Source: a virus (taxonomy: Duplodnaviria; Caudoviricetes). From it: DNA of 64,000 nucleotides. The notes under the pieces are model-generated. The model was not told the origin of the DNA and did not search any database. It saw only the letters and a program-made list of their open reading frames with translations. Positions 2,184 through 16,522 of this stretch are shown piece after piece. The stretch's first letter is position 1, and each line of letters opens with the position of its first letter. The position numbers were made by a program, and so were the translations under genes. Location of the stretch: IMG/VR virus record IMGVR_UViG_3300009540_000001, positions 1-64,000 of that record. The stretch is one strand, 5' to 3'.

Positions 2184-2220
2184 CGTTCTTTTATATTCCG
2201 GCACGTTGGTACGCCGGCGT
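2184..2220 (-). promoter_or_regulatory. conserved leader hairpin + A-rich tail, copy 1
   Basis: CCGGC-GTACCAACGT-GCCGG-AATATAAAAGAACG directly upstream of the SD. Confidence 0.75.
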
Positions 2221-2258
2221 TGTCGAAGGCGAGTCATAGGCCTTATTGCCTACATCTT

Positions 2259-2287
2259 CTTATACCCCCGGGGACCCCCCCTTTTCG
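2259..2287 (-). promoter_or_regulatory. phage promoter CGAAAA-N17-TATAAG
   Basis: Same architecture as 5 other sites. Confidence 0.7.
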
Positions 2288-2328
2288 GATACCCCCCCCC
2301 CCTCCCCAGGGACCCCCCCCTACCCCCC
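2265..2328 (-). repeat. cluster of G-homopolymer tracts (G4-G11)
   Basis: Several C-runs on the plus strand. Confidence 0.8.
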
Positions 2329-2901
2329 TGTACGCGGTAAAGCCTGAATACGGGCCCGTACGGCCTCCGCCCCCTTGTCGTAGAACAGCTTCACCGCCGT
2401 GAGGATCTGGACGACCAGCTTCGGGTCCTCGGCCCACTCGTCCTCGTCCCAGTGGACGACGTCATACCCCTTCTTGTCCTTGATCGTGACTGAGGTCGCC
2501 CCGACCTCGAGACTGCCGTCGTTGGCCTCGAGTTCGTCCTCCTCGTCCTGCCACTTCTTGGACTCCCGAACGACGGGGGAGAGGCAGTTGCCGCAGACGT
2601 CCTCGTCTTCCTCGGTGTAGACGAGGGAGCCGCAGGTAGCGCACTTGATGTGCCGGATCGCGCACACCGTCTTCCGCTCTTCCTCGAGCAGGGCGTCGAA
2701 CTCCGACTCCCCCATCGCGGCCCGCGCCTCCCCGTACGCCTTCTCCGTACTGGGGCACTCGGTGGCCCCGATCAAGAGGTGCGCGGCCCAGACGAAGCAG
2801 TCCTCCTCCATGGCTGCGGTGATGTCGCAGGTGTTGTTGTGACACACCTGCGTCGGATGCTCCTCGTGGAGCGCTTCTCGCAAGGCGTTGAAATGGGCCA
2901 T
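2320..2901 (-). CDS. hypothetical protein with zinc ribbon (CATCG...CGNC)
   Basis: ORF; CxxC pairs. Confidence 0.65.
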   Translation of the reverse strand: MAHFNALREALHEEHPTQVCHNNTCDITAAMEEDCFVWAAHLLIGATECPSTEKAYGEARAAMGESEFDALLEEERKTVCAIRHIKCATCGSLVYTEEDEDVCGNCLSPVVRESKKWQDEEDELEANDGSLEVGATSVTIKDKKGYDVVHWDEDEWAEDPKLVVQILTAVKLFYDKGAEAVRARIQALPRTGG

Positions 2902-3092
2902 CAATCGTCCTCCACCTCTTCTTCGTAGCTGTAGGGCTCTGCGGAATCGCCGTCGAAGTCCCCGTAGCCGTCTCCCCAGCCGAGGCCACCGTAGCTACAG
3001 CCCCAGCCGGTGCCCGTACCGTTGCCTTCCCACATGGCGAGGGGGCTCTGTCCATCCCCGGAGATGAAGCTGTCCTCACCGCGCTCTCGCAT
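2901..3092 (-). CDS. small Gly/acidic hypothetical protein
   Basis: GxGxG repeats; stop overlaps the next start. Confidence 0.5.
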   Translation of the reverse strand: MRERGEDSFISGDGQSPLAMWEGNGTGTGWGCSYGGLGWGDGYGDFDGDSAEPYSYEEEVEDD

Positions 3093-3111
3093 CTGGCCTT
3101 ACCCTTCCCGC

Positions 3112-3558
3112 ATGAAGTCTTCTCCCTGGTGGTTCTCGTTCCTGGTGTCGAATCACGAGGTCATCCTGGGCCTCCTGGTTTATCCGCTGATCACCGCCAT
3201 GTTCACCGTGGCGTCGCGCAAGCGCACGCCCGAGCAGTGGGAGGCGTGGGCGCTGACGAAGCCGTTCCTCGCGTTCCTGCTCGAGTTCATGAAGGCCTCG
3301 GGCCTGAACCCGGTGGGCATGCTCAAGGCCGTTCGGAACTACTCGGCGCGCAAGGCCGGGCAGGTGCCCGAGGGCGCGATTCGTGCGAGCGGGCTCCCGG
3401 AGCCGCTGAAGGCGGCGCTCCTGAACCCCGCCCTGCACGCGGTCCTGACGGAAGCGGCTCGCCTGCACGCAGAGGCGCAGGCCAAGCCGCCGGCGCCGAT
3501 CGAGCCTACGCCCCCGGCTTCGACGGCTCCGGCCACGCCCCCCGACGCAGCCGGTTGA
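3112..3558 (+). CDS. membrane protein, holin-like
   Basis: N-terminal transmembrane segment and Pro-rich tail; ATG at 3112 preceded by a TACCCT -10-like box. Confidence 0.5.
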   Translation: MKSSPWWFSFLVSNHEVILGLLVYPLITAMFTVASRKRTPEQWEAWALTKPFLAFLLEFMKASGLNPVGMLKAVRNYSARKAGQVPEGAIRASGLPEPLKAALLNPALHAVLTEAARLHAEAQAKPPAPIEPTPPASTAPATPPDAAG

Positions 3559-4840
3559 TCACCGCCTCGGAGAGCACGTGGATGGCGTTCACGTGCTCGG
3601 CCGACCCGTCGCCGCCCTTGTCGTGGGCGAACTCGTGAACCAACACCATGACGGTCTTGCCGAAGTTCTGAAGGACTGCACGGGATAGGAGGACCTCTTC
3701 CCCCTTGTGCAGGCCCTCGACCGTGTCGGTGCCGAAGGAGACGACGATCGTACGCTGGGGGGCGTTCGGTACGTCGGGGATGATGAGCTGAAGCGCCTCG
3801 GCGAGGTGCGTCAGCTCTTTGCCGTTCAGGTCCTCCGCTGCCCAGCGCGTCTTCACGCTCTCGGAGTGGCCCTTGATCACGCTCGAGGGGTCTTGCATGC
3901 GCTGCCGAAGCAGCGCGACGAGGCGGTGCGGCAGCGGCACGGCCACGTGCCCGATGTGCCCGAGGTCCATGCCCTCGGACGTCCCGGTGACGGGGACGGC
4001 CTGCTCGCCGTACTCGTCCTTGAACAGGTTCACCAGCGTGTCGACGAGCTTCGGGGGCATGGTGTACGCGAACACCCCCTCCTCGGACGACTGGTTCTTC
4101 AGCGCCTTGTACATGCGTTGTTGCATGGCCGCGTCGTCGCGCGCGCTGACCTCGCTCCACATCTCGGCGATGGCGGTGTCGAGGGTCCAGGAGTTCGGGA
4201 TGCGACGGTCGCGCCCGGTGTCGAGGTTATAGAAGTTGTACCCGAAGTCGTACCCAGGCCTCTTCGTGACGTAGACGCCACGCACGAAGATTCGGCCCAT
4301 GAACTCCGGGTCATCGAGCAGCTCGCCAGCGGTGGTCTTGTGCACCGTGGAGGCTGGGTGCAGGCGCAGGAACCACGTCCGCATCTCGTCCCACAGCGCC
4401 TCGGGGACGCCCTCGATCGAGACCTCGACGTCGTTGGCGGCCCGCGACGCCTTGGTGATGTTGATCACCAGGCAGTTCATGTCGTTACCGTCGCGCTCGA
4501 GCGTCGCCTTCCAGGTCTCGTCCGTCCCGTTCTTGATCGTGACGTCCATGCGCTCGCGCGCGAGCACGAGGAGGGCAAGCTTGAGCCCCTCGCCGTACTG
4601 CCCGATGACGCGGGAGTCGTGGCGCTTCGAAGACTCGCCGAAGTAAAGAGAAGAGACGGAGAGCTTCGTCCCTTGATTCTTCAGAACCAGCCGCTCTTTG
4701 CCCGAGTCGTACGCGGCGCTGAATGACGCCCCGTGCTCGATCTCGGCGTCGAGGCCGTTCGCCACGATCTCGCGGATCGCGTGGGCGACGGTCCACTCGG
4801 GGATGTAGTTGTCGGTGATCGGATACTTGTGCTTCGCCAC
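3506..4840 (-). CDS. GHKL-type ATPase fused to C-terminal HExxH zincin-like domain
   Basis: AIREIVANGLDA (N-box), GQYGEGLKLA (G-box), LVHEFAH...H. Confidence 0.75.
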   Translation of the reverse strand: MAKHKYPITDNYIPEWTVAHAIREIVANGLDAEIEHGASFSAAYDSGKERLVLKNQGTKLSVSSLYFGESSKRHDSRVIGQYGEGLKLALLVLARERMDVTIKNGTDETWKATLERDGNDMNCLVINITKASRAANDVEVSIEGVPEALWDEMRTWFLRLHPASTVHKTTAGELLDDPEFMGRIFVRGVYVTKRPGYDFGYNFYNLDTGRDRRIPNSWTLDTAIAEMWSEVSARDDAAMQQRMYKALKNQSSEEGVFAYTMPPKLVDTLVNLFKDEYGEQAVPVTGTSEGMDLGHIGHVAVPLPHRLVALLRQRMQDPSSVIKGHSESVKTRWAAEDLNGKELTHLAEALQLIIPDVPNAPQRTIVVSFGTDTVEGLHKGEEVLLSRAVLQNFGKTVMVLVHEFAHDKGGDGSAEHVNAIHVLSEAVINRLRRGAWPEPSKPGA

Positions 4841-4908
4841 GAAAAATAATGCTCCTGCCGCTGCGAAATGCTTCGGCAGAGCTCATACCCGCGAATGGCT
4901 CGGATTTC

Positions 4909-5304
4909 TCAGGGCGAGGGCATCGCCCGCGTACGCCGTAAAGATCGCGCCGTCGCGAGCACGTACGCGCGCGTCACGCGTCGTCGGGAGAGGCAGCTTC
5001 CGCTTTCGTAGCGTCGGAAGGCGCCGTCTTCAGAGTGACACGATGCCAAGCTATGGGCCCAAGAGGTGTAAGCCAGGTCTTCGTGGGAACGCGCGCTACG
5101 GCGTACTCGGGGGAGACCGTAGGGTCGTCGCGCGTGCAGGTGCACGCCGTCCTCATGCACGCGCAGGACGACGAGCACACAGGCAGCGTCGGCATTCTCA
5201 GACGCCTCCGCGTACGCCGCGATCCGCCCGGCGATCTCGAGGCGCTCCTCGGGTGCAGTACGGGGCTGGAGCATCGCCAGGAGGGTCAGGACGTACGCCA
5301 GCAT
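4909..5304 (-). CDS. small exported protein, possibly lysozyme/transglycosylase-like
   Basis: Signal-like MLAYVLTLLAML; ...VHEDG...YG...RRYESG pattern; start reassigned to 5304. Confidence 0.4.
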   Translation of the reverse strand: MLAYVLTLLAMLQPRTAPEERLEIAGRIAAYAEASENADAACVLVVLRVHEDGVHLHARRPYGLPRVRRSARSHEDLAYTSWAHSLASCHSEDGAFRRYESGSCLSRRRVTRAYVLATARSLRRTRAMPSP

Positions 5305-5653
5305 TCTTACCGAGGATGGAGGGTGGGACCGTGGGAGAAGAGGCCTTGTAGTGGATGTACCCGGGGCGTGGCGTGACCTCGACGTCGCCCATCTCGGGCC
5401 CGAGGAACGCCGCGCAGATCCCGGGCGCCGCCTCCGCCAGCTTCGCGTCGTTGGGGCGGTGCCGTAGGTACAGACACAGCCTTCCGTCCACGATCTCCGA
5501 AGACGCCTCCATGCCGCACTCGAGCGGGGAGTAGGCGCGCGCGGAGTGAAACTCTTCCCCCTCGGCGCGCGCCTTGGCGGCGGCGTGCCACAGCGACCAG
5601 GCACGCTCGAGCAGGAACAGGGTCTCGGGGTGGGTGAGCTGCGGCGCGGGCAT
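5198..5653 (-). CDS. hypothetical protein
   Basis: ORF in a run of tightly packed minus-strand genes. Confidence 0.55.
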   Translation of the reverse strand: MPAPQLTHPETLFLLERAWSLWHAAAKARAEGEEFHSARAYSPLECGMEASSEIVDGRLCLYLRHRPNDAKLAEAAPGICAAFLGPEMGDVEVTPRPGYIHYKASSPTVPPSILGKNAGVRPDPPGDAPAPYCTRGAPRDRRADRGVRGGV

Positions 5654-5657
5654 GGCT

Positions 5658-6086
5658 TTACCGCGTGGGCTTCGCGGGGGCCGCTGCGGTGGGCAGGCTC
5701 TTGCGGACCTTCTGGTAGTACTCGAACGCGGCCTGCCGTACCTCGTTGATCTCCTCCGGAGACAAGGGGACGTCGTCGGCGTTGAGGACGTTCAGCGCCG
5801 TCAGCTCCATCATGAACACCCCCGCGCGCGGCCCGAGGTTGCCCTCCTGGCACAGGAGCGAAAAGAAACGCACGAGGCGTTGCGTGGGGTCGAGCGCGGC
5901 CTGGTAGTTGTCCGTCAGCGGCGCCATCTCTTTGAGCCCGAACGGGTCGCTCGGGTCGCGCTCGCGTTCGACCGAGGTCTCCGCGAACGCTCCGACGTTC
6001 AGGTTCTTGTAGGTCTCAGCGAGCTCGTCCGCTTTGCGGTCGGCGCCAGGGACGTAGAGCAAGGGGGCTGCGGTGGGGGGCTTCAT
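5658..6086 (-). CDS. hypothetical protein
   Basis: ORF, codon usage. Confidence 0.65.
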   Translation of the reverse strand: MKPPTAAPLLYVPGADRKADELAETYKNLNVGAFAETSVERERDPSDPFGLKEMAPLTDNYQAALDPTQRLVRFFSLLCQEGNLGPRAGVFMMELTALNVLNADDVPLSPEEINEVRQAAFEYYQKVRKSLPTAAAPAKPTR

Positions 6087-6087
6087 C

Positions 6088-6336
6088 TCACTTCACCATC
6101 ACGAGCGAGCAGCGCGCCTGCACCGAGGCACCTGCCACGATGTACGGCTTGCTGCGGTCCGTCCCAGCCGGAACCTGCTTCGCGCCCTCGGGCAGCGTCA
6201 TGCCGTCCGGCACCGGGTTCGGGTACTCGGACCGCGCGACACACCAGCCGAGCCAGGAGTCCTTCTCCCCCTTGGGGGTGAACTTCTTCTGGGCGTCGTA
6301 ATGCGCGCACTTGGCGCAGGGCGTCTTGTTCTGCAT
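6088..6336 (-). CDS. small Cys-containing protein
   Basis: CAKCAHY...WC...C. Confidence 0.65.
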   Translation of the reverse strand: MQNKTPCAKCAHYDAQKKFTPKGEKDSWLGWCVARSEYPNPVPDGMTLPEGAKQVPAGTDRSKPYIVAGASVQARCSLVMVK

Positions 6337-6348
6337 GGGCCGATCTTC

Positions 6349-6831
6349 TCAGACGTCCCTGACGATTTCCACTCCGTACTTCACCATCACGTCGGCCTGC
6401 TTCGGGGACTCGTGTCGGTAGAACGTCAGCGCCGTCGCCAACCGGTCTACGGACATCTTCAGCGCGAGCGCCGCGTTCGACGAAGAAGCCGCCGCGTACA
6501 GCTTCAGAGGGCCGAACTCGAGCGGTGAGCAAGGGCCAAGGATGTCGCCCTCGACATAGGAGAGCTTCAGGCGGCGCAGGTGCGGCGAAAGCCCGGGTCG
6601 GGCTTCGGCCAGGAACTCCCCGAGGATGTGCCCAGCCGCCTTCTCGGTGTCCGCAGGGTCCTTGAACTTTCCGGGGACGGTGACGAGGACGCTGTACCGC
6701 TGCCCTCGAACCGAGACCGAGGTCTTGCCCGCGCGGATCTTCGCGCGCAGCTGCTCGGCGACGCTCATCTCCTCGGCGGGCTTCTTGAGACCCCAGGGGC
6801 TCAGGATCCCCGATGCTTTGCTGTCCGCCAT
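6349..6831 (-). CDS. hypothetical protein
   Basis: Start MADSK at 6831, coupled to the upstream stop. Confidence 0.65.
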   Translation of the reverse strand: MADSKASGILSPWGLKKPAEEMSVAEQLRAKIRAGKTSVSVRGQRYSVLVTVPGKFKDPADTEKAAGHILGEFLAEARPGLSPHLRRLKLSYVEGDILGPCSPLEFGPLKLYAAASSSNAALALKMSVDRLATALTFYRHESPKQADVMVKYGVEIVRDV

Positions 6832-7286
6832 CACCCGCTCACGAGGATGAGGTTCCGGGCCCCCATCAGCTTCGGGTCCGCGCAGTCCGCGTGCGCGCAC
6901 TCGTACCCCTCAGTGCACCGAATCGCCGGAGCGCTGTGCAGCGGGTCGAGCGCGACGCCCTCTACGCGGTAAAGAAGGAGGAGCCGATCTTCACGCACGA
7001 ACGTCTTCGTGCAGCGGAGACACTGGTACTCGGGCGCGGCGGCAGGCACGGGCGGGGGGTCTCCGAGCTTGAGAGTGTGGCGCGCGACGCGCAGGGCCTC
7101 GGGCAAAGAGATCTGAGGATTCGCGCAGTCGAAATGCACGGCCTCGGGCTGATCCTGCACGAACGTCCGCCCGCCCTCAACCCCCGTCGCGACACGTACT
7201 TGCAGGATCGCGTCGCCTTGCTTCAGCAAGGCTCGGCACCTGCGGCACGTGTGGACGGGGGTGAGGTCGGAGACGTCGGGGAACAC
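6831..7286 (-). CDS. protein with duplicated CxxC...HxxC zinc-finger unit
   Basis: CRRC..HFDCANP and CLRC..HADCADP. Confidence 0.65.
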   Translation of the reverse strand: MFPDVSDLTPVHTCRRCRALLKQGDAILQVRVATGVEGGRTFVQDQPEAVHFDCANPQISLPEALRVARHTLKLGDPPPVPAAAPEYQCLRCTKTFVREDRLLLLYRVEGVALDPLHSAPAIRCTEGYECAHADCADPKLMGARNLILVSG

Positions 7287-7304
7287 GGGAAGAGGGTACC
7301 CCGA

Positions 7305-7739
7305 CTACCCCTTCGCCGCCAGTAGCGCGTCGAGCTTCTTGCGGAACGTCTCCTCCACGCCTTTGAGCATGTCGTCGCGCTCCGTCGTCAGCGCCTTGAG
7401 CTTGTCGCGCAGCGCCTCTCCGTCCTTGCCCAAGATCAGCATCTTCGGCTTGAAGGTGTGGTCGCCGTACCCCTCGACCTTGACGACGCCGGAGGCATAG
7501 CCCTTCACGACCTTGCCCCCTATGAGGTAGGGGTAGCTGTCGTAGCCCCAGAAGGCCCAGAGGCCGCCGAGTGCCTCGGCGTCGATCTCTTTACTCGGTG
7601 CAGACGGCGGCGCGTGCTCGCGCGCGATCCGCGCTTCACGAATCTTCGCCTCGGCTTGGGCCAAGCGGGACCGAGCAGCCTGAATCTCTTGCTCTTGCTC
7701 TTGCTCTTCTTCGAAGATCCTTCGTTTCGAGTCGCTCAT
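7305..7739 (-). CDS. hypothetical coiled-coil protein
   Basis: ORF coupled to the DinG stop (ATGA). Confidence 0.65.
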   Translation of the reverse strand: MSDSKRRIFEEEQEQEQEIQAARSRLAQAEAKIREARIAREHAPPSAPSKEIDAEALGGLWAFWGYDSYPYLIGGKVVKGYASGVVKVEGYGDHTFKPKMLILGKDGEALRDKLKALTTERDDMLKGVEETFRKKLDALLAAKG

Positions 7740-9808
7740 TTCGAACTCCCTTGAGCTTCGCTCAGCTGCTGTTCGTACATGCCCGCCAACCCGCCCAGGA
7801 ACGCCAAGGCCTTGCTCTTGTCGCTCGTCGTCGGCATCGGCAGCGCCGTTCGCACCTTGTGAGAGTACCCCTTCGTGTTCGAGTAGGCCCGCTTGTCGAG
7901 GACCGCAACAACACCCATGTCAGTCTCCGAACGAATCAGGCGCCCTGCCCCTTGCTTTAGGTCGAAGATTGCTTCGTTGAGGTCGAAGTCCGCCCAGGTT
8001 TGCATCGACGCGCGGTTCGGGTCGAAGCCCGCCTCGATCAAGCGGTCTGCGACTTGCTGCTTGCGCGCCTTCAGGAGCACGTCCCCGAAGTTCGGGAACG
8101 GCAGGCGCGGGATGATGACGAGCCGGCAGACGAGCCCGGGCAGATCGACGCCTTCCCAGAAGGTCTTCACGCCGAAAAGAACGGGGTTGGGCGTCTTCAG
8201 GAACCACTCGATCAAGGGCTCGGGCGGCCCGTTCTGGAGGCCCATGTTGTACGGCAGGGGCATGTGGTTGGTGCGCAGGGCGCTGTGCAGCTTGTTCATG
8301 TCGTCGTACGACGCGCACAGCACCAGCGCGCCGCCCTTCGACGCGACGAGCAGTTCGTGGATCTCAGCGGCCTGCTTGTCGAAGTACGAGTCGCTGCGGT
8401 CCGAGGGGTCCGGGGAAGTAGCCGAGATGTACGCGCACGACGTCGCCTTGTAGTTGAACGTCGCGGGCAGGATCACAGCCTCCTTGAGCTGCCTGGGGTG
8501 AAAGCCGAACTCCCGGGCCATGTATTCGAAGGAGTTGTTCGTCGACAGCGTCGCCGACGTGATGACCACCTTCTTCAGCCCGAGCAGCGGCGGGGCGATC
8601 AGCGGTCCGATCTCGAGCGGCGTCACGACGACCTCGGGCACCGACCCGCGCCCCTTGGTCTCGATGTACACGAGGTACTCGACGTCTCCGCCGCTCAGGA
8701 TCTGTCCCTCCTCATCTCGCTCGACGTGACGGCCCAGCGCGATCTGCGCCAGCTTCTTCACCTTGTCGACCATGGCCGCACCCGCCTTGAGCTTCGCCTT
8801 GGCGCGCGCTACGTCGTAGTCCCCGCTCTCGAAGGTCTGCTCCTCCTCGAGCAAGCCCTTGCCCTCCATCTTCTGCCGGGCGCGCCCGATTACCTCGTAA
8901 AGATCCTCGAAGTAGGGCGCGACGTTGTCGGACATGGGCAGCGCCTGCGACGTCTGGGGGATCCGCTGGAAGATCTCCCCGTAGATGCGGTCGACGACCT
9001 CGGGCAGCTCGTACTCCGAGCCGTCCAAGAGCCTGCGCATCGCCTCGGGCTGCTTGTGATGCAGGCGCAGGGAGTACGCATCCCGAAAGAACTTGGGCGC
9101 CTGATGCGCTTCGTCGATGACGAGCGCGTCGTACGCGCCGAGGAGCTTGCCGCCGCCCATGGCGAGGTCGTGGGCCAAGAGGGCGTGGTTCACGACGAGG
9201 ACCTTCGCCGACATGGCCTTGTCCTTCGCGTGGGTGTACCCGCAGTTCGCCTCCGCGTGCGGGCAGGACTTCCGCACGCACTCGCTCACGCGCATGAGTG
9301 CTTCGATCTGGTAGGGCACGGGGCGCGGGACGTCGGAGAGGTCGCCCGTCTCCGACTGCGCGAACCACTCGAGGAACGTCGCGCGCTCGATCGCGGCCCA
9401 GCGTTCGAACTGCTCGTTGTCGTTGAGCTCGTCGACGCGCAGCTGGCAGCCGTAGTTACCCTTGCCCTTGAGCAGGGCGTGCGCGGGGACGACGGCGAGC
9501 GTGCTCTGGAGCTTCTCGCGCAGGAACGGGAAGTCCTTCTCGTTCAGCTGTTTCTGAAGCGTCTTCTTCGCGGTGGAGATCACCACGCGCAGCCCGCTCA
9601 AGTACGCGGGCAGACCGTACGCGAGGCTCTTGCCGGTGCCCGTCGGGGCCTCGACCATGACGACGTTGGAGGCCTCGGGGGTCCCGGCGAAGACGGTCTC
9701 GACGATCTGCGCCATCGAGACCTGTGCGGGGCGGACGGAGCGGGCGATGCCGTGCGCCGTCGAGGAGAGGAGTTTGGAGGCGCGGAGCGTGGTGGCGATG
9801 TTAGCCAT
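7736..9808 (-). CDS. dinG: DinG/YoaA-family Fe-S helicase
   Basis: EAPTGTGKS, KGKGNYGC, Fe-S cysteines, VVNHALL, IDEAH, TSATL, FWEGVD, QGAGRLIR. Confidence 0.92.
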   Translation of the reverse strand: MANIATTLRASKLLSSTAHGIARSVRPAQVSMAQIVETVFAGTPEASNVVMVEAPTGTGKSLAYGLPAYLSGLRVVISTAKKTLQKQLNEKDFPFLREKLQSTLAVVPAHALLKGKGNYGCQLRVDELNDNEQFERWAAIERATFLEWFAQSETGDLSDVPRPVPYQIEALMRVSECVRKSCPHAEANCGYTHAKDKAMSAKVLVVNHALLAHDLAMGGGKLLGAYDALVIDEAHQAPKFFRDAYSLRLHHKQPEAMRRLLDGSEYELPEVVDRIYGEIFQRIPQTSQALPMSDNVAPYFEDLYEVIGRARQKMEGKGLLEEEQTFESGDYDVARAKAKLKAGAAMVDKVKKLAQIALGRHVERDEEGQILSGGDVEYLVYIETKGRGSVPEVVVTPLEIGPLIAPPLLGLKKVVITSATLSTNNSFEYMAREFGFHPRQLKEAVILPATFNYKATSCAYISATSPDPSDRSDSYFDKQAAEIHELLVASKGGALVLCASYDDMNKLHSALRTNHMPLPYNMGLQNGPPEPLIEWFLKTPNPVLFGVKTFWEGVDLPGLVCRLVIIPRLPFPNFGDVLLKARKQQVADRLIEAGFDPNRASMQTWADFDLNEAIFDLKQGAGRLIRSETDMGVVAVLDKRAYSNTKGYSHKVRTALPMPTTSDKSKALAFLGGLAGMYEQQLSEAQGSSK

Positions 9809-9889
9809 CTTGGGCCTGTGCTTTCTTTCTTGCAGCTAACGGGTATGCTAGCGGCGCTACTCATACCACAAGTACTGGGAGATTCTGAA

Positions 9890-10600: not shown

Positions 10601-10614
10601 GTCGCCCGTCCGGT

Positions 10615-11007
10615 ATGATCCGGGCAAGGGCGATGGCCGCCGGCGTCGCTCTGCCCCGGGCGGGTTCTTTCAACGACGCGGTGCTACAGGCGATGCTCTC
10701 GCGCGAGCAGAACCTGAGATTCACGGAAGTCTCGCTGCTGACGCGCATGTTGGAGCGCGTGGTAGGGGAGCTCTACGAGCTGACGACGAAGCCCGACGTC
10801 ATCGACGTACGCCGTAAAGCGTTGTCCGACGACGTGGGCCGGAACCTGAAGGTCTACGAGTCGGAGCTCTACCAAGATCGCTACGCCGCGTCGTACGTAC
10901 GCGAAGAGCGCGAGCGTACTCGGGCGGAGCAGCAGGCAGCGTTCGCGGCCAAAGAAAAGCAGGCGGAGTTGCTCGAGAAGGTCAGGAAGTTCGGGGACGA
11001 CGGGTGA
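10615..11007 (+). CDS. hypothetical protein, candidate frameshift extension of the preceding gene
   Basis: The -1 frame is open across the upstream stop. Confidence 0.5.
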   Translation: MIRARAMAAGVALPRAGSFNDAVLQAMLSREQNLRFTEVSLLTRMLERVVGELYELTTKPDVIDVRRKALSDDVGRNLKVYESELYQDRYAASYVREERERTRAEQQAAFAAKEKQAELLEKVRKFGDDG

Positions 11008-11255
11008 CAGCCCTCCTCTTCTTGGCGGTCTTCACTCTCACCTTCTCCATGGACCTCTTCTACGTCCACTACCTACGCTCGGTCGCGAAAGACCGCCCCG
11101 CCCGCGCAGCGTTCTTCAGCTGCCTCACGCACTTGAACGGCGTCATCAACATCAGCGCCGTCATGCACGACCGCAGGTATCTCGCGGCGATTCTGCTGGG
11201 TGCGTGGTGGGGGACGTACTACAGCGTGTGGCGTTCGAGGAAGACTGCGGGCTAA
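11004..11255 (+). CDS. small membrane protein
   Basis: Three hydrophobic segments; GTGA coupling. Confidence 0.65.
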   Translation: MTALLFLAVFTLTFSMDLFYVHYLRSVAKDRPARAAFFSCLTHLNGVINISAVMHDRRYLAAILLGAWWGTYYSVWRSRKTAG

Positions 11256-11298
11256 AGAGACCGCGCCCCGAGCCTTGCGGCCCGGGGCGCTGTCTCTC
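11252..11298 (-). terminator. intrinsic terminator
   Basis: GC stem with GCAA loop followed by TCTCTTTAGC. Confidence 0.7.
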
Positions 11299-12446
11299 TA
11301 GGCGCTCGCCCGTACGTGCCGCGCGCGGCGCGACCCCCAGGGCCGGAACCCCTCGGGCACGGCCGACGCCTCCGCCGCGCGCTCCGGGGCGCGCGGTGCG
11401 AACACGCGGTCGAGTTCGGCGTCAGCCTTCTCGGCGAGCGCGCGCGCTGCCGCGCACGCGGCGTCGTACGCGTCTCGGAGCGCGCTGACGTTGTGCGCGC
11501 GCTGGGCGACCTGCTTGGCCTCCCAGTACGCGTCCCACACCTCTTGCTCGCCCACGCCCTCGTGGTCGACGTGGCGCGCGGCGTACGCCACTTCGACCCG
11601 GTCTCGGGCCGCGCGCTCAGCCTGCTCGGCCGCGTACATGACGTCGCAGGCGGCCTTGAAGGCCTCCGGCGCGTTGTACGCAGCGTAGGCCACCATGTAA
11701 GCCGCGTGCGCGGCCTCCTTGGCGGCGTCCGCCGTCTTCCACGCAGCGGAGGCGTCGACGCACGCCGCCTCACGCGCGGCCTGTCGCCGCTCCCGCGCGT
11801 CCCGCGCCGCCTCGAACGCGGGCGTCGTGGCGACGACCGCCGCGTCCGCGTCGACCGCGTCGTGCGCCGCCGCCAACGCGTCGGCGTGCGGCGCGACGAG
11901 CGCCACGCCTTGCTCCGCCGCGCGCTGGAGGAGCGGGGGCATGGCGCGGCGGACGACCTCCGCGCCCTCCTTGCCCGCGACCGCCGCCGTCGCCGCCGCC
12001 GCCGTCGCCCAGTGGCGGCTGCGGGCGGTCTCGGGCACGAAGGCGACGGAGACGGCGCCCCCGTCGGTGATCCGGACCTCGACGCACTCGACGTCCCCCT
12101 TGCGGGTGACCACGAGGCGCACGGCGCCCGACGGCGACACCGACCACTCGAGACGACCCGTGGCGGTCGTGTGGACGAGGCAACCGTGTCGGTCGACCAC
12201 CGGCGCGACCCCGCCCATGTCGTCTTCGCTCGCGGCGGCGAAGAGCGCCGCGACGCACTCCCCGATGCTACCTGCGGGCGGCTTCTCGCCCGCCCACCAG
12301 TGCCCGTGCGCACGGGCCAGCGCGTGGGCCGCGCGCCACTGCCGGGGCGTGGGGCGGTAAGCTGAGATGGCCTCGCGGACGCGGTCTTCAAGGCCGGAGT
12401 CTTCGGACGCAAGGCAGAGAATCGCAAGGCATTCGTTGTTGTTCAT
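11298..12446 (-). CDS. Ala-rich hypothetical protein
   Basis: Start MNNNECL at 12446, behind leader motif copy 2. Confidence 0.7.
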   Translation of the reverse strand: MNNNECLAILCLASEDSGLEDRVREAISAYRPTPRQWRAAHALARAHGHWWAGEKPPAGSIGECVAALFAAASEDDMGGVAPVVDRHGCLVHTTATGRLEWSVSPSGAVRLVVTRKGDVECVEVRITDGGAVSVAFVPETARSRHWATAAAATAAVAGKEGAEVVRRAMPPLLQRAAEQGVALVAPHADALAAAHDAVDADAAVVATTPAFEAARDARERRQAAREAACVDASAAWKTADAAKEAAHAAYMVAYAAYNAPEAFKAACDVMYAAEQAERAARDRVEVAYAARHVDHEGVGEQEVWDAYWEAKQVAQRAHNVSALRDAYDAACAAARALAEKADAELDRVFAPRAPERAAEASAVPEGFRPWGSRRARHVRASA

Positions 12447-12458
12447 GGCTCTGTCCCC

Positions 12459-12495
12459 CGTTCTTTTATATCCCGGCACGTAGGAACGCCGGTGT
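12459..12495 (-). promoter_or_regulatory. leader hairpin + A-rich tail, copy 2
   Basis: CCGGC-GTTCCTACGT-GCCGG-GATATAAAAGAACG. Confidence 0.75.
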
Positions 12496-12522
12496 GAGAG
12501 AAGTCCTAGAAGGCTACATACC

Positions 12523-12551
12523 CTTATACCCTCCCCCAAGGTACCTTTTAG
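12523..12551 (-). promoter_or_regulatory. promoter CTAAAA-N17-TATAAG
   Basis: Repeated architecture. Confidence 0.7.
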
Positions 12552-12600
12552 GCTAAAGAGAAGGCACCCCGGACCTCGCGGCCCGGGCCTTCTCTTTAGC
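12552..12600. terminator. intrinsic terminator, probably bidirectional
   Basis: gctaaagagaaggc...gccttctctttagc inverted repeat. Confidence 0.7.
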
Positions 12601-12871
12601 TGTTCCGTAGTGCTCTAAGGGAGGCTGCGAGCCTCCCCAAGTTGAGGTTGTCCTTCCGGTCTTCATAGGCCTGGCGCCAGGTGGCCTCCGCGCAGGCTCG
12701 GGCCTGCGCGTCTTCCGCCCTCGCCGCCTCCCCGAGCGCCCTCTGCGCCTCTACTAGGCGGTCGTCCGCATCCAGCTCGCGAATGCGGCGCCGGAGCGCG
12801 CCGTGCGTGTAGGGGTTCTCCGGGGTCGAGGTCGAGGCGAACACAATGCAAGGCTTGTATGCGATGTTCAT
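12596..12871 (-). CDS. hypothetical protein
   Basis: SD AGGAG; has its own promoter. Confidence 0.65.
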   Translation of the reverse strand: MNIAYKPCIVFASTSTPENPYTHGALRRRIRELDADDRLVEAQRALGEAARAEDAQARACAEATWRQAYEDRKDNLNLGRLAASLRALRNS

Positions 12872-12908
12872 TGTCCTACTCCTTTAATGAGCCGTTTCTA
12901 CCCACTTC

Positions 12909-12938
12909 CTTATACCCTCCCCTCCCCCTACCTTTTTG
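12909..12938 (-). promoter_or_regulatory. promoter CAAAAA-N18-TATAAG
   Basis: Repeated architecture. Confidence 0.6.
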
Positions 12939-12940
12939 CT

Positions 12941-13648
12941 ATGCCCCGCCGCCCCATCCTCCCCCCCGCCCACGCCGCCTTCCTGAAACGCGCCTTCGAG
13001 CTCGACGAGCTCTCCAAGCGCATCCCGGAGGCGTCCCTCGGCGATAAGCCGGGGACCGTGCAGTTCAAGACCCCGAGCGGGCACACGGTGACCACGCCGT
13101 ACGACGCGCAGACGGTGACCCATCAGGTCAAGCGCCTGGGGGGTGTCGACCCGTACTACGCGAAGCTCAAGGCCACGCTCGAGGAGCAGGGGCGGCGTAC
13201 GGACCGGGGCGTCGAGCGGGACCGGACGCGCGCGGTCGAAGACCGCAGGTCCAGCAACATGGTCGGCGGCGGTACGCTCGGCGGCCTGGCGGGCGCCGGT
13301 CTCGGCGCGCTCGCTGGTCACTTCGCGGGCGGGCACGGGGGCGTCGGCGCTCTGGCCGGCGGCCTCGCGGGGGCGCTCGGCGGCGGGTACCTCGGGCACA
13401 ACGCCCACGTCGATCGTCAGAGCGGTCCGACGTCGCGGCGCATCAACGAGATCGAGGACCTGTACCAAGAGCCTGAGCACGTCAAAGAGACGCGCAGGAA
13501 CTTGGAGAACGTCAGGTCCGAGTTGGCGGCTGAGCGGTTCCAGCGACAGATGGACCGACACTTCGACCGGTGGGACCGGTATGACCGGTACGACAGCCGG
13601 TATCGGTACCCGGGGGACTTTGGGTATCGCAGCCCGCTGTTCTACTGA
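12941..13648 (+). CDS. glycine-zipper protein, possibly virion or membrane associated
   Basis: GGTLGGLAGAGLGALAG...GALAGGLAGALGGG; start reassigned to MPRRP. Confidence 0.65.
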   Translation: MPRRPILPPAHAAFLKRAFELDELSKRIPEASLGDKPGTVQFKTPSGHTVTTPYDAQTVTHQVKRLGGVDPYYAKLKATLEEQGRRTDRGVERDRTRAVEDRRSSNMVGGGTLGGLAGAGLGALAGHFAGGHGGVGALAGGLAGALGGGYLGHNAHVDRQSGPTSRRINEIEDLYQEPEHVKETRRNLENVRSELAAERFQRQMDRHFDRWDRYDRYDSRYRYPGDFGYRSPLFY

Positions 13649-13660
13649 GCCTTACGGCGT

Positions 13661-13712
13661 AAAGAAAAGAAGCCCGTACGCAGACGCCCCGTAAGGCGCC
13701 TGCGTACGAGCT
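13661..13712 (-). terminator. long-stem terminator
   Basis: GCTCGTACGCAGGCGCC/GGCGTCTGCGTACGGGC (G-U wobbles on the minus strand) followed by TTCTTTTCTTT. Confidence 0.75.
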
Positions 13713-13940
13713 CCCGCGCACAAGGCTCTGCGTCACGCCAGCTGTCGCGCCGCCACCCTCTACCGTACAGGGGAGTCGTACGCCGGCCGAGCCTCGAGCT
13801 GGTCCGGGAGAGCATCCGCGAACCCGGACACACAGCTCGAGGCGAGGTCGGACGGCCCCATTGTGAACGACGCGACATCGTTCGGGGCCATTGGGAATGC
13901 CCTCACCCAGGGACAGCTGGGAGGGTGAGGGCTGATGGGA
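13713..13940 (-). ncRNA. candidate structured ncRNA with long-range loop pairing
   Basis: Three strong hairpins; the loop of the first hairpin is complementary over 9 nt to a 3' segment. Confidence 0.6.
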
Positions 13941-13942
13941 GA

Positions 13943-14524
13943 TCAGTCGGCTACGACGCACCAGGCGTCGTCGTAGGCCTTCGCGTCACGGGCTTTCGCC
14001 CGGGCGTCCTCGAGCGTCCAAGTCTCGGCCTCGCGGTTCCCGCCCGCGAGGTTCGATACGAGGCGATAGGGTGCGAGCGCCGGGGCGGGCCCGGCGAACG
14101 CGAGGACCGCCACCACCACGTGGGTGGAGCCGACCTCCGTGAGCTCCCCGAGTTCGACCAAGTCGACCTCCGGGTCGTTACGGTACGCCTGCATCGTGTA
14201 CACGACGACTGCGACGCCGGCGACGGGCGCGGCGTGCTCCCGCTTCAGGAACGCCTCGCAGCGCCCCCGGTGCACGCGCACCACGTACGCCTCGGGGGCG
14301 GCCGAGCGCGGGCCGACGCCAGCGCTGACGAGGCCGATGCCCCCGGCGAGGGGTAGGAAGTACTGCCCCGGAACCTTGTCCGGGGTCTTGACGTCCGCCT
14401 CGTGTGCTCGGACCTGTTCCTCGAGCTTATCGAGGAAGGCGTCCCAGTCGAGAACTTTCGTCCCCACCGAGCGGACGTCAAAGGCCGAGCAGACCTTCGA
14501 AATCCCGAACTTCACGTTGTCCAT
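13943..14524 (-). CDS. conserved-looking hypothetical protein (weak DUF3228-like pattern)
   Basis: VVVYT..Y..DP, HVVVAVLA, P..PYRLVSNLAGGN, Y...W..VAD; strong SD GGAGGAG. Confidence 0.65.
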   Translation of the reverse strand: MDNVKFGISKVCSAFDVRSVGTKVLDWDAFLDKLEEQVRAHEADVKTPDKVPGQYFLPLAGGIGLVSAGVGPRSAAPEAYVVRVHRGRCEAFLKREHAAPVAGVAVVVYTMQAYRNDPEVDLVELGELTEVGSTHVVVAVLAFAGPAPALAPYRLVSNLAGGNREAETWTLEDARAKARDAKAYDDAWCVVAD

Positions 14525-14538
14525 TGTCCTGTCTCCTC

Positions 14539-14642
14539 CTCCGTTGTTTTCTATCCCGCCACGTAGGTACGGCGGTGTTCGAGGCGTTAAAGAAGGCGAG
14601 CGCTCCGTTGTTTTCTATACCGCCACGTAGCTACGGCGGTGT
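14539..14642 (-). repeat. two tandem 40-bp copies (3 and 4) of the leader hairpin motif
   Basis: 14539-14578 and 14603-14642, 2 mismatches, 24-nt spacer. Confidence 0.85.
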
Positions 14643-14648
14643 GGGAGG

Positions 14649-14846
14649 CTAGAGCTCCCAGTCGGGCTCCAACCCGAACACGCGGGCGAGTCGGTTCTGG
14701 GCGGCGGGGTGTGGGACCGACGTCCCAGCCTCCCACCGGCACACGGTCCGAACGCTGACCTCGAGCTTCCGGGCGAGCATCTCTTGCGAGAGCCCGCACT
14801 GGACACGAGCGTGGCGAAGGGCATTGAAGTCTGTGTTGGTCTTCAC
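14649..14846 (-). CDS. XRE/Cro-family helix-turn-helix regulator
   Basis: LRHARVQCGLSQEMLARKLEVSVRTVCRWEAG..P. Confidence 0.88.
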   Translation of the reverse strand: MKTNTDFNALRHARVQCGLSQEMLARKLEVSVRTVCRWEAGTSVPHPAAQNRLARVFGLEPDWEL

Positions 14847-14851
14847 ATATC

Positions 14852-14880
14852 CTTATACCCTCCCCCAACCTCCCATTTAC
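14852..14880 (-). promoter_or_regulatory. promoter GTAAAT-N17-TATAAG, likely leaderless
   Basis: GTG start 5 nt after the -10 box; the -35 box overlaps a TAC-N3-GTAAAG site. Confidence 0.7.
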
Positions 14881-14915
14881 GACGTAAAGAAACGCCGGGC
14901 TTTCGCCCGACGTCC

Positions 14916-15680
14916 CTACCCACGGGCGGCCCGCGCTTTCGCGAGCTTCGCCGGGGCGGTCTGGCGCAGCAGCCGCGCCGCGAGCTCTGGGCTTGCGCCC
15001 AGCTGGATCGCGACGCGAACGCCGCGAGAGACGCGTTTGTAGTACGCGTCCTGCTTGACGCCCGAGGGCGGCGTCGTTCGGCCTTCGAACTTGCATTCGA
15101 AGGCTGCGATGAGCTGCGCGTAGCGAAGCGTCTCGCCCGGGCCCTCGAGCAGGACCAAGGCGATCATCTCTCGGCGCAGGGCGCTCTCGGCGCAACGCGA
15201 CTGCGCTGCGTCGACGCCCCGAAGGGCGGTCGCGATGGCGTCAATCGCTGCTTCGCGCCGGCGTCGCCACGCCGAGATTTGCGCGAACCTGACAACCTGG
15301 TTCGCGTATCCCCAGGGGCGGCGCGCGGCCTGCGCGCGCTCAACGACGTCTCCCGCTTTCGCGGGAGACTTAACTGCCAGGAGGTAGGCGAATAGCCTTC
15401 GCGCCTGGGCGGGTCTCTCGGCCCCGGGGGTGATCCACCCCAGGCCGGAGAGGGAACGCACGTTGCCGTGCGTCCGATGCTCGCGGCGCAGGATACGCCG
15501 CGCTTGGCACATGGTCGTGCCAGGCACAGCCGCCGCGACGGCGGCTGCGCTCAGAGGGTCGCGCGCAGCGCTGATCAGCGCGCGCACGGCGAGCGTTCGC
15601 TCGCTGGGCTCACCTGCTTTCGCAGGTGCCTCCTTGGCCGGGAAGGCGAAGGAGGATGCAACACCTGGTAGGGTGCTCAC
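14916..15680 (-). CDS. basic Ala/Arg-rich hypothetical protein, possibly DNA binding
   Basis: ORF bounded by its own promoter and a terminator-like hairpin. Confidence 0.55.
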   Translation of the reverse strand: MSTLPGVASSFAFPAKEAPAKAGEPSERTLAVRALISAARDPLSAAAVAAAVPGTTMCQARRILRREHRTHGNVRSLSGLGWITPGAERPAQARRLFAYLLAVKSPAKAGDVVERAQAARRPWGYANQVVRFAQISAWRRRREAAIDAIATALRGVDAAQSRCAESALRREMIALVLLEGPGETLRYAQLIAAFECKFEGRTTPPSGVKQDAYYKRVSRGVRVAIQLGASPELAARLLRQTAPAKLAKARAARG

Positions 15681-15685
15681 ATATC

Positions 15686-15714
15686 CTTATACCCTCCCCG
15701 GCTAAGCCCTTTCG
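15686..15714 (-). promoter_or_regulatory. promoter CGAAAG-N17-TATAAG, likely leaderless
   Basis: Repeated architecture. Confidence 0.7.
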
Positions 15715-15723
15715 GATTACCAG

Positions 15724-15768
15724 GTAAAGAGAACGCCGTCCGGAGCCTTGCGGCTCCGGGGGCGTTCC
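15724..15768 (-). terminator. intrinsic terminator
   Basis: ccggagcc-GCAA-ggctccgg stem followed by TTCTCTTTAC. Confidence 0.7.
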
Positions 15769-15776
15769 CTGGCGAG

Positions 15777-16136
15777 CTAGTTCGCGAAGGCGGGCTGGGC
15801 TTGCGCCAGCATCGCGTCCTCGAGGATCGCCTCTCGAACGAGGTCCTGGAGCCCGGCCGGCTGGAACATCTCGGACCCGTGAGACTTCCACATGGCGACC
15901 TCGGCCACGCCGAAGACGCCATAGACCACCAAGGCTCCGACGGGGCCCGCGACGATCTTCGCGGTCATCACGCACGCCGCCATCGGCAGCTGCGTGGCGG
16001 CGCCCCCGACGAACGCGGCCCCCGCCATCGCGGTCTTGGGCGCGTAGCCCTCTTGCCGCAGGTACCCGTAGGTCTTGCGGGCCACGGTCACGAGCAAGGC
16101 CGAACGACGCGCAACAAGGCTCTTCACAATGTTCAT
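15777..16136 (-). CDS. small membrane protein
   Basis: Hydrophobic central region; behind leader copy 5. Confidence 0.65.
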   Translation of the reverse strand: MNIVKSLVARRSALLVTVARKTYGYLRQEGYAPKTAMAGAAFVGGAATQLPMAACVMTAKIVAGPVGALVVYGVFGVAEVAMWKSHGSEMFQPAGLQDLVREAILEDAMLAQAQPAFAN

Positions 16137-16148
16137 GGCTCAGTCCCC

Positions 16149-16185
16149 CGTTCTTTTATATTCCGGCACGTAGGAACGCCGGTGT
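16149..16185 (-). promoter_or_regulatory. leader hairpin + A-rich tail, copy 5
   Basis: CCGGC-GTTCCTACGT-GCCGG-AATATAAAAGAACG. Confidence 0.75.
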
Positions 16186-16212
16186 GGTGTAAGCACCGTT
16201 TGCCTACATCTT

Positions 16213-16241
16213 CTTATACCCGCTCTAGGGGGTTGTTTTAG
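16213..16241 (-). promoter_or_regulatory. promoter CTAAAA-N17-TATAAG
   Basis: Repeated architecture. Confidence 0.7.
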
Positions 16242-16522
16242 ACTCCCCCCCGGGCCGCCCGGGTCTTGCGCTCCATCTCGTTCCGCTCCTCCCTGTGGGG
16301 GTCGCAGTACGGCCCCCTCGCAGGCGCTCCACAGCGCAAGCAGAGCTTGGAAGCCTTCCGGCGCAGGCGTAGGGCTGCGGCGGATACCCGCTGGGTGTGA
16401 CGGCAGGGCTCGCAACGGGTGTACCCGTTTACGAAGGGGCGGTCTCCGCAGTCACCGCACAGGCCCTGCGCGATACGCCGGGCACGGAACAGACGCATGT
16501 ACTGCGTGGGTGTCATAGGCAT
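16238..16522 (-). CDS. small basic protein with two zinc-finger units
   Basis: CGDCG..CEPC and CLRCG..CDPH; SD GGAGG before MPMTP. Confidence 0.65.
   Translation of the reverse strand: MPMTPTQYMRLFRARRIAQGLCGDCGDRPFVNGYTRCEPCRHTQRVSAAALRLRRKASKLCLRCGAPARGPYCDPHREERNEMERKTRAARGGV

What the first reader, a model, noticed from the sequence alone, without database searches (positions are those of the whole stretch)
2184..16185. Five copies of a ~37-nt leader element (5-bp stem, 10-nt loop, A-rich tail) with covariation
SEEN (minus strand): 2184-2220 CCGGC GTACCAACGT GCCGG AATATAAAAGAACG; 12459-12495 and 16149-16185 CCGGC GTTCCTACGT GCCGG (G/A)ATATAAAAGAACG; 14542-14578 and 14606-14642 CCGCC GTA(C/G)CTACGT GGCGG (G/T)ATAGAAAACAACG. 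The stem shows a compensatory G-C to C-G swap, the loop is always 10 nt (GT...ACGT), and the tail ends in AACG immediately before the Shine-Dalgarno sequence of four unrelated genes. Loop CGU can pair with tail ACG, which would give an H-type pseudoknot with an A-rich L3 next to the RBS. KNOWN: that topology is used by small riboswitches such as preQ1-I, but the sequence matches no class I recognise. INFERENCE: an undescribed phage cis-regulatory RNA (ligand or protein sensing, translational enhancer, or nuclease block). A DNA hairpin promoter using the TATAAA/TAGAAA tail is an alternative.
Basis: partly seen in the sequence, partly recalled or inferred. Interest (0 to 1): 0.78.

Follow-up and report, generated by a model that had tools for sequence, protein, structure and literature searches.

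The report
Repeated leader RNA element, phage early genes
An uncultured 172-kb phage has put five copies of a private 37-base hairpin with an A-rich tail between its own early promoter and the ribosome-binding sites of four unrelated early genes. It is most likely a small RNA knot that gates translation, but it occurs in no other sequence I could search, so its function is unproven.

Summary
There are five copies, all on the minus strand at the stated coordinates. Shuffles expect 0.00 copies, and a covariance model scores the five at 64-73 bits against 14 bits for the next best hit. The rest of the 172-kb genome holds no further copy.

New context: a second motif, "A", is a promoter conserved across the phage lineage. 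It has a -35-like box, a 17-nt spacer and a TAnAAG hexamer, and the transcript starts 6 nt after the hexamer. In relatives and here it often sits exactly on an ATG or GTG, giving leaderless mRNAs. Every copy of the element lies downstream of an A start site. Three sit in 71-85-nt leaders. Two sit just after a leaderless Cro-like HTH gene. Orthologous leaders in relatives are about 35-40 nt and lack the element.

The element does not score as an A-type or sigma-70 promoter. It reaches no Rfam family threshold, and preQ1-I gives no hit.

My reading, at about 0.5 confidence, is a phage-private 5'-leader RNA that gates ribosome binding. Rivals are a promoter/operator module and a processing, pausing or antitermination signal. 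No copy was found outside this genome.

The parts
16149..16185 (-). Element copy B5: AC + 5-bp stem + 10-nt loop + A-rich tail ending AACG. It lies at +26..+59 of the transcript predicted from promoter A (start ~16207).
12459..12495 (-). Element copy B2, near-identical to B5 through the SD and the first two codons. It lies at +26..+59 from the start at ~12517.
14606..14642 (-). Element copy B3. It lies 9 nt after the stop codon of the HTH gene and has no start codon behind it. It carries the loop G9 / downstream C38 compensatory change.
14542..14578 (-). Element copy B4, 64 nt downstream of B3, abutting the GGAGGAGGAG SD of the 193-aa gene.
2184..2220 (-). Element copy B1, at +37..+70 from the start at ~2253. 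The orthologous leaders in relatives lack it.
16207..16251 (-). Promoter A: -35-like box, 17-nt spacer, GGGTATAAG, predicted start at 16207. It is followed by a 5' stem-loop.
12517..12561 (-). Promoter A upstream of B2.
2253..2297 (-). Promoter A upstream of B1. This is the best-scoring own site on the matrix built from relatives only (41.8 bits).
14846..14890 (-). Promoter A whose predicted +1 is the GTG of the HTH gene (leaderless). It drives the transcript that carries B3 and B4.
15680..15724 (-). Promoter A whose predicted +1 is the GTG of the 254-aa basic ORFan. This unit has no element B.
12903..12947 (-). Promoter A with a short SD-bearing leader for the 91-aa gene. This unit has no element B.
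14649..14846 (-). 65-aa XRE/Cro-type HTH gene directly upstream of B3 and B4.
15777..16136 (-). 119-aa ORFan behind B5 (hydrophobic).
11298..12446 (-). 382-aa ORFan behind B2, followed by a terminator at 11263-11290.
13943..14524 (-). 193-aa ORFan behind B4. A terminator lies at 13669-13714.
1227..2168 (-). 313-aa gene behind B1. It has orthologues in relatives, which have promoter A but no element B.
59191..59976 (+). Phage sigma-factor gene (Sigma70_r2, 36.6 bits), candidate reader of promoter A.

Best explanation
The element is a cis-acting RNA module in the leaders of early messages of this phage. Transcription starts at the lineage-specific promoter A (inferred). The message first forms a 5' stem-loop, then the element. 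A 5-6-bp G+C-rich hairpin (P1) forms. The 3' half of its loop (ACGU) plus a CCU-type anti-SD triplet can pair with the ACG that ends the tail and with the first purines of the Shine-Dalgarno sequence. The 11-nt A-rich linker is placed to lie along P1. The result is an H-type pseudoknot that covers the ribosome-binding site. This would gate or delay translation of four early ORFan genes relative to the leaderless immediate-early genes (the HTH gene and the 254-aa protein), which lack the element. What shifts the fold (a phage early protein, a metabolite or the ribosome itself) is unknown. Shown: the copies, their positions, the stem swap, the complementarity. Inferred: the start site, the folding, the effect on translation.
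For: (1) All five copies lie downstream of predicted A start sites and in the same orientation. A matrix built only from 13 sites in relatives finds A at 16207, 15680, 14846, 12903, 12517 and 2253. Seven sites in relatives and three here have ATG or GTG exactly 6 nt after the hexamer, opening ORFs of 62-254 aa, which fixes the start site. (2) Orthologous A-driven leaders in relatives run about 35-40 nt from start to ATG and lack the element, whereas here they are 71-85 nt, so the element is an insert into a transcribed leader. (3) In all four gene-linked copies the tail ends 0-2 nt from the SD, although the SD-to-ATG distance varies by 12-17 nt. (4) For P1 plus the pseudoknot in the register i+j=47, 90% of cells pair, against 33-48% when the partner is slid. 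There is one compensatory pair in each helix. The S2 helices score -2.8 to -6.1 kcal/mol as duplexes including initiation, and P1 alone scores -8 to -9.7. (5) The core is 86% identical across copies while the flanks are unrelated. B2 and B5 keep the element, SD and start nearly identical although the spacer to promoter A has diverged. (6) The element is not an A-type promoter: it scores -5 to -28 where real sites score 27-61. It is not sigma-70-like either.
Against: There are only five copies, about three independent types, in one genome, so the covariation rests on two events and could be chance or gene conversion. Copy B3 has no start codon behind it, so gating of an adjacent RBS cannot be its whole role. 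The tail also fits TAKAAA + 5 nt + G, the core geometry of promoter A. The spacings (64 bp between B3 and B4, and A-to-element distances that differ by 11 bp) would suit a DNA-bound protein. Leader folds are not more stable than shuffles in 3 of 4 cases. No trans-acting factor or ligand was identified. There are no transcript data.
Confidence: 0.5

Rival explanations
1. A DNA-level promoter/operator module. The A/T-rich tail serves as a -10-like hexamer (TAKAAA) with the start at the G of AACG. The 5+5-bp inverted repeat at -14..-33 is the site of a phage activator or repressor, for example the adjacent Cro-like HTH or the basic 254-aa protein. This would give these genes a second, later promoter or a roadblock to promoter A.
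For: The tail fits hexamer + 5 nt + purine, as in promoter A, and varies at the same third hexamer position (T/G) as A does among relatives. An XRE HTH gene ends 9 nt before the tandem pair. The B3-B4 spacing is 64 bp and the A-to-element distances are 45.5 and 56.5 bp, both compatible with helical phasing. A symmetric change in both arms is also what a dimer site would show.
Against: The matrix score is far below real A sites, even for the core alone (at most 2.6 against 17-34). It lacks the -35-like box and the conserved T at -1 / GT at +1. A sigma-70 scan finds no site in 1-17 kb. The half-site centres are 15 bp apart with a strongly conserved, asymmetric 10-bp centre, which is unlike operators of small HTH dimers (established knowledge). 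All five copies sit behind an A promoter, which a free-standing promoter class would not need. There are only five sites in 172 kb and none in relatives.
Confidence: 0.2
2. An RNA signal that acts on the transcript or the polymerase rather than on the ribosome. Options are a processing or stability site (cleavage in the A/U-rich tail beside a hairpin), a hairpin-stabilised pause just before the SD, or a nut/put-like antitermination site that lets the polymerase read through the terminators ending each early unit.
For: The positions parallel lambda nutL (in the leader after the early promoter) and nutR (just after cro): three copies sit in leaders and two sit right after the Cro-like gene. Every early unit ends in an intrinsic terminator. 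B3 works without an adjacent start codon. The tail is among the few A/T-rich islands in a 66% G+C genome (32 in 172 kb).
Against: No NusG-like or Q-type antiterminator gene was detected, and N-like proteins cannot be searched reliably. The loop is 10 nt, not the 5-nt boxB type. The tight abutment to the SD in all four gene-linked copies is not required by these models. No boxA-like partner motif is conserved in the flanks.
Confidence: 0.2
3. A CRISPR-repeat mimic (solitary repeat unit or RNA anti-CRISPR) carried on abundant early transcripts to soak up host Cas proteins.
For: There is a weak resemblance to the type I-F repeat model CRISPR-DR4: a CAC flank, a 5-bp stem and UAGAAA after the stem (14.5 bits, E 1.6, on a 141-nt search).
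Against: The score is far below the family threshold of 35 bits. The loop is 5 nt too long. A scan of one genome for each of 185,579 species with the hairpin pattern gave only five single hits in coding DNA and no arrays.
Confidence: 0.03
4. A passively duplicated leader cassette with no function of its own beyond supplying an unstructured A-rich stretch before the SD (a translational enhancer or insulator hairpin).
For: B2/B5 and B3/B4 are near-identical pairs, and B2/B5 share the SD and first codons, as expected of duplication. A-rich leaders favour initiation in G+C-rich messages (established knowledge).
Against: 29 of 37 core positions are invariant across three contexts whose flanks are unrelated, including loop bases that an enhancer would not need. 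B3 is kept intact without a gene.
Confidence: 0.07

Closest known systems
preQ1-I riboswitch (Rfam RF00522; review PMC11625349)
   Same: About 34 nt. A 5-bp P1, a loop of about 10 nt, an A-rich L3 tail and a short P2 formed between the loop and the 3' end that takes in the first SD bases. Located in a 5' leader.
   Different: No cmscan hit even at E <= 10. The base pair of letters before the 3' strand of P1 is GU, not the defining UC or AC with the specificity cytosine. L3 is 11 nt. There are no queuosine or 7-deazaguanine genes in the phage, and the genes controlled are ORFans.
SAM/SAH riboswitch (Rfam RF01727) and other SD-sequestering H-type pseudoknots (SAM-II, guanidine-III)
   Same: A hairpin whose loop pairs with the SD across an A/U-rich linker. 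This was the best, though weak, Rfam riboswitch match.
   Different: 14.4 and 9.6 bits against a threshold of 40. The conserved loop bases are not shared. There is no link to methyl-cycle genes.
Translational operator of phage T4 gene 32 (5' pseudoknot followed by an unstructured A/U-rich tract up to the RBS; from my own knowledge)
   Same: A phage message, with a small folded element followed by an A/U-rich single strand that ends at the ribosome-binding site. It is read by a phage protein to shut off translation.
   Different: There is one operator on one autoregulated gene in T4, whereas here five copies sit on four unrelated genes. No binding protein was identified. There is no sequence similarity.
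Lambda nutL/nutR sites (boxA + boxB; from my own knowledge)
   Same: Placement in the early leader and directly after the cro-type gene. A 5-bp-stem hairpin with A-rich sequence. Early units bounded by terminators.
   Different: The boxB loop is 5 nt. No boxA was found and no N, Q or NusG-like gene was found. nut sites need not touch an SD.
PeSL promoter/stem-loop cassettes of T4-type phages (PMC2839356, PMC4122927)
   Same: Early genes come as units bounded by a conserved terminator-plus-early-promoter composite. Here each unit has a hairpin with TTCTTTAC followed by promoter A.
   Different: PeSLs describe the promoter/terminator composite, which corresponds to motif A and its terminator, not the extra hairpin-plus-tail element next to the SD.

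Membership tests
preQ1-I riboswitch (RF00522) | Scores at or above the Rfam gathering threshold on the family covariance model | tested here: not met
   No hit at E <= 10 in 17 kb or in two short sub-windows searched with lax filters.
preQ1-I riboswitch (RF00522) | 3' strand of P1 preceded by UC (type I) or AC (types II and III), the cytosine that reads the ligand (PMC11625349) | tested here: not met
   All five copies have ...ACGU directly before the 3' strand, so the preceding two bases are GU.
preQ1-I riboswitch (RF00522) | H-type pseudoknot with a 5-bp P1, an A-rich L3 and a P2 reaching the SD | tested here: inconclusive
   The complementarity is present with one compensatory pair per helix. 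This is a prediction only.
preQ1-I riboswitch (RF00522) | Association with queuosine / 7-deazaguanine genes | tested here: not met
   There are no TGT or QueC matches in the genome. The downstream genes have no family.
SAM/SAH riboswitch (RF01727) | Score at or above the gathering threshold (40 bits) | tested here: not met
   14.4 and 9.6 bits.
Promoter A of this phage lineage | -35-like box, 17-nt spacer, GGGTAnAAG, T at -1 and purine at +1 | tested here: not met
   The matrix score of the element in every register is -5 to -28, against 27-61 for real sites. The core alone scores at most 2.6, against 17-34.
Sigma-70-type promoter | TTGACA-like and TATAAT-like hexamers 16-18 nt apart, with T at the last -10 position | tested here: not met
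   No site in 1-17 kb on either strand. The hexamer ends in A.
N4-type hairpin promoter for virion RNA polymerase | 5-7-bp stem with a 3-nt loop read by a single-subunit virion polymerase (from my own knowledge) | tested here: not met
   The loop is 10 nt in all copies. This lineage carries a multisubunit polymerase plus sigma (PMC10585845; the polymerase itself I did not test).
CRISPR repeat / RNA anti-CRISPR mimic | Close likeness to a repeat family that exists in arrays in prokaryote genomes | tested here: not met
   CRISPR-DR4 scores 14.5 bits against a threshold of 35. There are no arrays among the hits in 185,579 species genomes.
Lambda-type nut site | boxB hairpin with a 5-nt loop, a boxA, and an N-type protein | tested here: inconclusive
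   The placement fits. The loop size does not fit, and no conserved flank motif exists. No NusG or Q genes were found. N-like proteins are not searchable.
Operator of a small XRE/Cro dimer | Two half-sites about one helical turn apart, bound by the neighbouring HTH protein | not testable with these tools
   The arms are 15 bp centre to centre with an asymmetric conserved centre. Binding cannot be computed.

The most novel reading that the evidence does not exclude
A new class of small H-type pseudoknot switch, responsive to a metabolite or a protein, invented by one phage lineage and copied onto four early genes. It would time translation of host-takeover proteins on messages made by a polymerase that the virion brings with it.
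Probability: 0.18. Interest if true: 0.75.

Novelty: new member of a known kind. Interest (0 to 1): 0.45.

Why it matters
If the reading holds, this phage regulates a set of early genes after transcription with a 40-nt RNA module that it can paste in front of any ribosome-binding site. That would be a compact, portable translational gate of use to RNA biology and to synthetic control in G+C-rich hosts.

The by-product is more general. The work defines the promoter of a poorly known lineage of phages that encode, and probably package, a bacterial-type RNA polymerase with its own sigma factor. It shows that this promoter often starts messages exactly on the start codon.

The case is limited by the element being confined to one uncultured genome.

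Tried and rejected
- **Searches for the element elsewhere, all negative.** GenBank phages by megablast gave no match to the first 20 kb. Two IMG/VR pattern scans gave nothing or a stemless chance hit. A JGI metagenome scan with a stem-free pattern gave 12 hits, none with a complementary stem. A genome-contig scan gave five chance hits in coding DNA.
- **Covariance model on relatives.** The model run on 22 + 17 loci and on five whole genomes of relatives found nothing.
- **Closest relatives not reachable.** The helicase is 84%, 62% and 61% identical in P0002-P0004, which are Logan contigs.
- **Rfam.** Only sub-threshold noise appeared.
- **preQ1 idea.** Rejected on the consensus, on cmscan and on the absence of the pathway.
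- **ECF-sigma-type motif.** I read the element by eye for one; there is none.
- **Conserved upstream ORF through the element.** Rejected, because frames and stops differ among copies.
- **254-aa neighbour.** It has no homologue in 5.8 billion proteins, only weak atlas leads to sigma/wHTH clusters, and the AlphaFold model is useless (pLDDT 43).
- **Leader folds.** MFE folds also offer a helix between an upstream CU-rich tract and the SD in 4 of 5 copies. The z-scores are insignificant except for B1.
- **Own-versus-cross loop/SD duplex energies.** These favour the cognate partner for B3 and B2/B5 only.
Full report
**Setting**

The window is the first 64 kb of a 172,374-bp IMG/VR virus record with a 123-bp terminal repeat and about 66% G+C. 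It has no close relative among GenBank phages.

The finding lies in a minus-strand block (about 0.9-16.3 kb) of short genes, mostly without any family. The block also holds a DinG-type helicase and a 65-aa XRE/Cro-type HTH protein.

**Observation**

The five copies are real and at the stated places.
- Shuffles expect none.
- The whole genome has only these five.
- A covariance model scores them at 64-73 bits, with nothing above 14 bits elsewhere in the genome.

In the 47-column alignment, 29 positions are invariant. Two of these are the bases before the stem. Variable positions are stem pair 4 (G-C in three copies, C-G in two), loop positions 8, 9 and 11, and tail positions 21, 25 and 30.

Flanks are unrelated between the three sequence types: B1, B2/B5 and B3/B4. 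The four genes behind the copies are not similar to one another.

**A second motif gives the context**

About 45-56 nt upstream of three copies lies motif A. It consists of a -35-like box (C/G, T/G, AAA), 17 nt, then GGGTATAAG and a conserved T-G-T-A/G-G.

Relatives were found through an alignment of helicase homologues. Motif A is kept in them at 43-47% helicase identity and 60-69% G+C. It sits in front of the orthologue of the 2168 gene and elsewhere in their genomes.

In seven sites in relatives, an ATG lies exactly 6 nt after the hexamer and opens an ORF of 65-177 aa. Three own sites do the same with GTG or ATG. These include the HTH gene (14846), whose Pfam domain starts at residue 10 so no later start is possible, and the 254-aa gene (15680). 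This fixes the transcript start and shows that the lineage makes leaderless messages.

A matrix built from the sites in relatives alone recovers nine own sites, all on the minus strand. Six are in the early block, with starts at about 16207, 15680, 14846, 12903, 12517 and 2253.

Earlier notes of this scan say the phage encodes a bacterial-type polymerase and is a distant relative of Salmonella phage Arash. I did not test the polymerase. I did confirm a sigma gene at 59191-59976. I also read that Arash virions contain beta, beta' and a sigma factor (PMC10585845). Motif A is therefore most simply the early promoter of the phage's own holoenzyme. This is an inference.

**Where the element sits**

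| Copy | Position relative to the predicted A start | Leader length / note |
|---|---|---|
| B5 | +26..+59 | 71-nt leader |
| B2 | +26..+59 | 71-nt leader |
| B1 | +37..+70 | 85-nt leader |
| B3 | +208 | after the leaderless HTH ORF, no terminator in between |
| B4 | +272 | after the leaderless HTH ORF, no terminator in between |

Leaders of the same promoter in relatives consist of a 5' stem-loop (which covaries among phages), an SD and an ATG within about 35-40 nt, with nothing like the element. The element is thus an insertion into a transcribed leader and is private to this phage. Two complete genomes of relatives lack it.

Each early unit ends in an intrinsic terminator.

**Promoter test**

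On the A matrix the element scores -5 to -28 in its best register, where real sites score 27-61. For the core alone it scores at most 2.6, against 17-34. It lacks the -35-like box and the T(-1)/G-T start context. A sigma-70 scan finds no site in 1-17 kb.

The tail does fit TAKAAA + 5 nt + G, so a promoter of an unknown class cannot be excluded.

**RNA fold**

RNAfold predicts the hairpin in most contexts.

The same register continues into the SD:
- B4: CCU with AGG.
- B3: GCU with AGC. This is a change on both sides relative to B4.
- B2/B5: four further pairs.
- B1: instead gains A12-U35.

With both helices, 90% of cells pair, against 33-48% for slid partners. 7-12 of 500 shuffles reach the observed pairing or covariation score.

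P1 alone is worth -8 to -9.7 kcal/mol. The second helix scores -2.8 to -6.1 as a duplex including initiation. That makes it a marginal fold, as expected of a switch.

The geometry is that of a classical H-type pseudoknot with an A-rich third loop: L1 of 2-3 nt, no L2, and L3 of 11 nt, mostly A. This is the architecture of preQ1-I and of the SAM-II and SAM/SAH riboswitches.

**Known families**

Rfam scans gave no preQ1 hit, both on 17 kb and on two short stretches. The best matches were SAM/SAH at 14.4 bits (threshold 40), CRISPR-DR4 at 14.5 bits (threshold 35) and RAGATH-25 at 11.4 bits (threshold 49).

The preQ1-I consensus requires UC or AC before the 3' strand of P1 (PMC11625349). The element has GU there. 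The genome has no TGT or QueC.

A scan for CRISPR arrays with such a repeat was negative. No NusG-like or Q-type gene is present.

**Weighing the readings**

Four points favour an RNA that acts at the ribosome-binding site:
- Strict co-orientation and placement behind promoter A.
- Abutment to the SD.
- An asymmetric, conserved loop.
- Pairing into the SD.

Four points keep DNA-level and polymerase-level readings alive:
- Copy B3 has no start codon.
- The tail has a -10-like form.
- The spacings are compatible with helical phasing.
- There are no data outside one genome.

I put the leader-RNA/RBS-gate reading at about 0.5. I put the promoter/operator module at 0.2, a processing, pause or antitermination signal at 0.2, and the rest at 0.1.

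**Limits**

There are no transcript data and no host. The single metagenome scan has been used. The structure prediction of the neighbouring 254-aa protein failed.

Noticed in passing
window minus strand, starts ~16207, 15680, 14846, 12903, 12517, 2253; also genome ~117720, 146122, 153675, 131354; relatives L098-L114: A promoter conserved across the lineage: a -35-like box, 17 nt, GGGTAnAAG, and the start 6 nt later. It often sits exactly on ATG or GTG, giving leaderless messages. It was seen in five genomes of relatives with 60-69% G+C, so it is probably read by the phages' own polymerase and sigma.
   Followed up: yes
window 14866-14905, 15700-15760, 12552-12593 (minus strand): Each early unit ends in a hairpin followed by TTCTTTAC. 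That T-tract is the left half of the genome-wide CTTTAC-N3-GTA site noted by other readers. At the HTH promoter the palindrome TTTACGTCGTAAA overlaps the -35-like box, so the protein that reads this site could also repress early promoters.
   Followed up: partly
genome 137306-137413 and 137724-137831 (outside the window): An inverted repeat of about 108 bp at 86% identity with A/T-rich arms. It places nearly identical leaders in front of two divergent genes that both begin ATGTGT. It is one of the few A/T-rich spots in the genome.
   Followed up: partly
window 59191-59976 (+): A sigma-factor gene with a region 2 match (36.6 bits) but no detectable region 4.
   Followed up: partly
window 14916-15680 (-): A very basic 254-aa protein (42 K+R against 19 D+E) made from a leaderless promoter-A unit. 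It has no homologue in 5.8 billion proteins. Gene callers start it at residue 32.
   Followed up: partly
window 2250-2253, 12514-12517, 16204-16207 (minus strand): At the three promoter-A sites that carry the element, the predicted start region reads ATG-TAG, a start-stop pair one base before the predicted +1. At the leaderless sites it reads ATG-TGA overlapping the GTG start.
   Followed up: no
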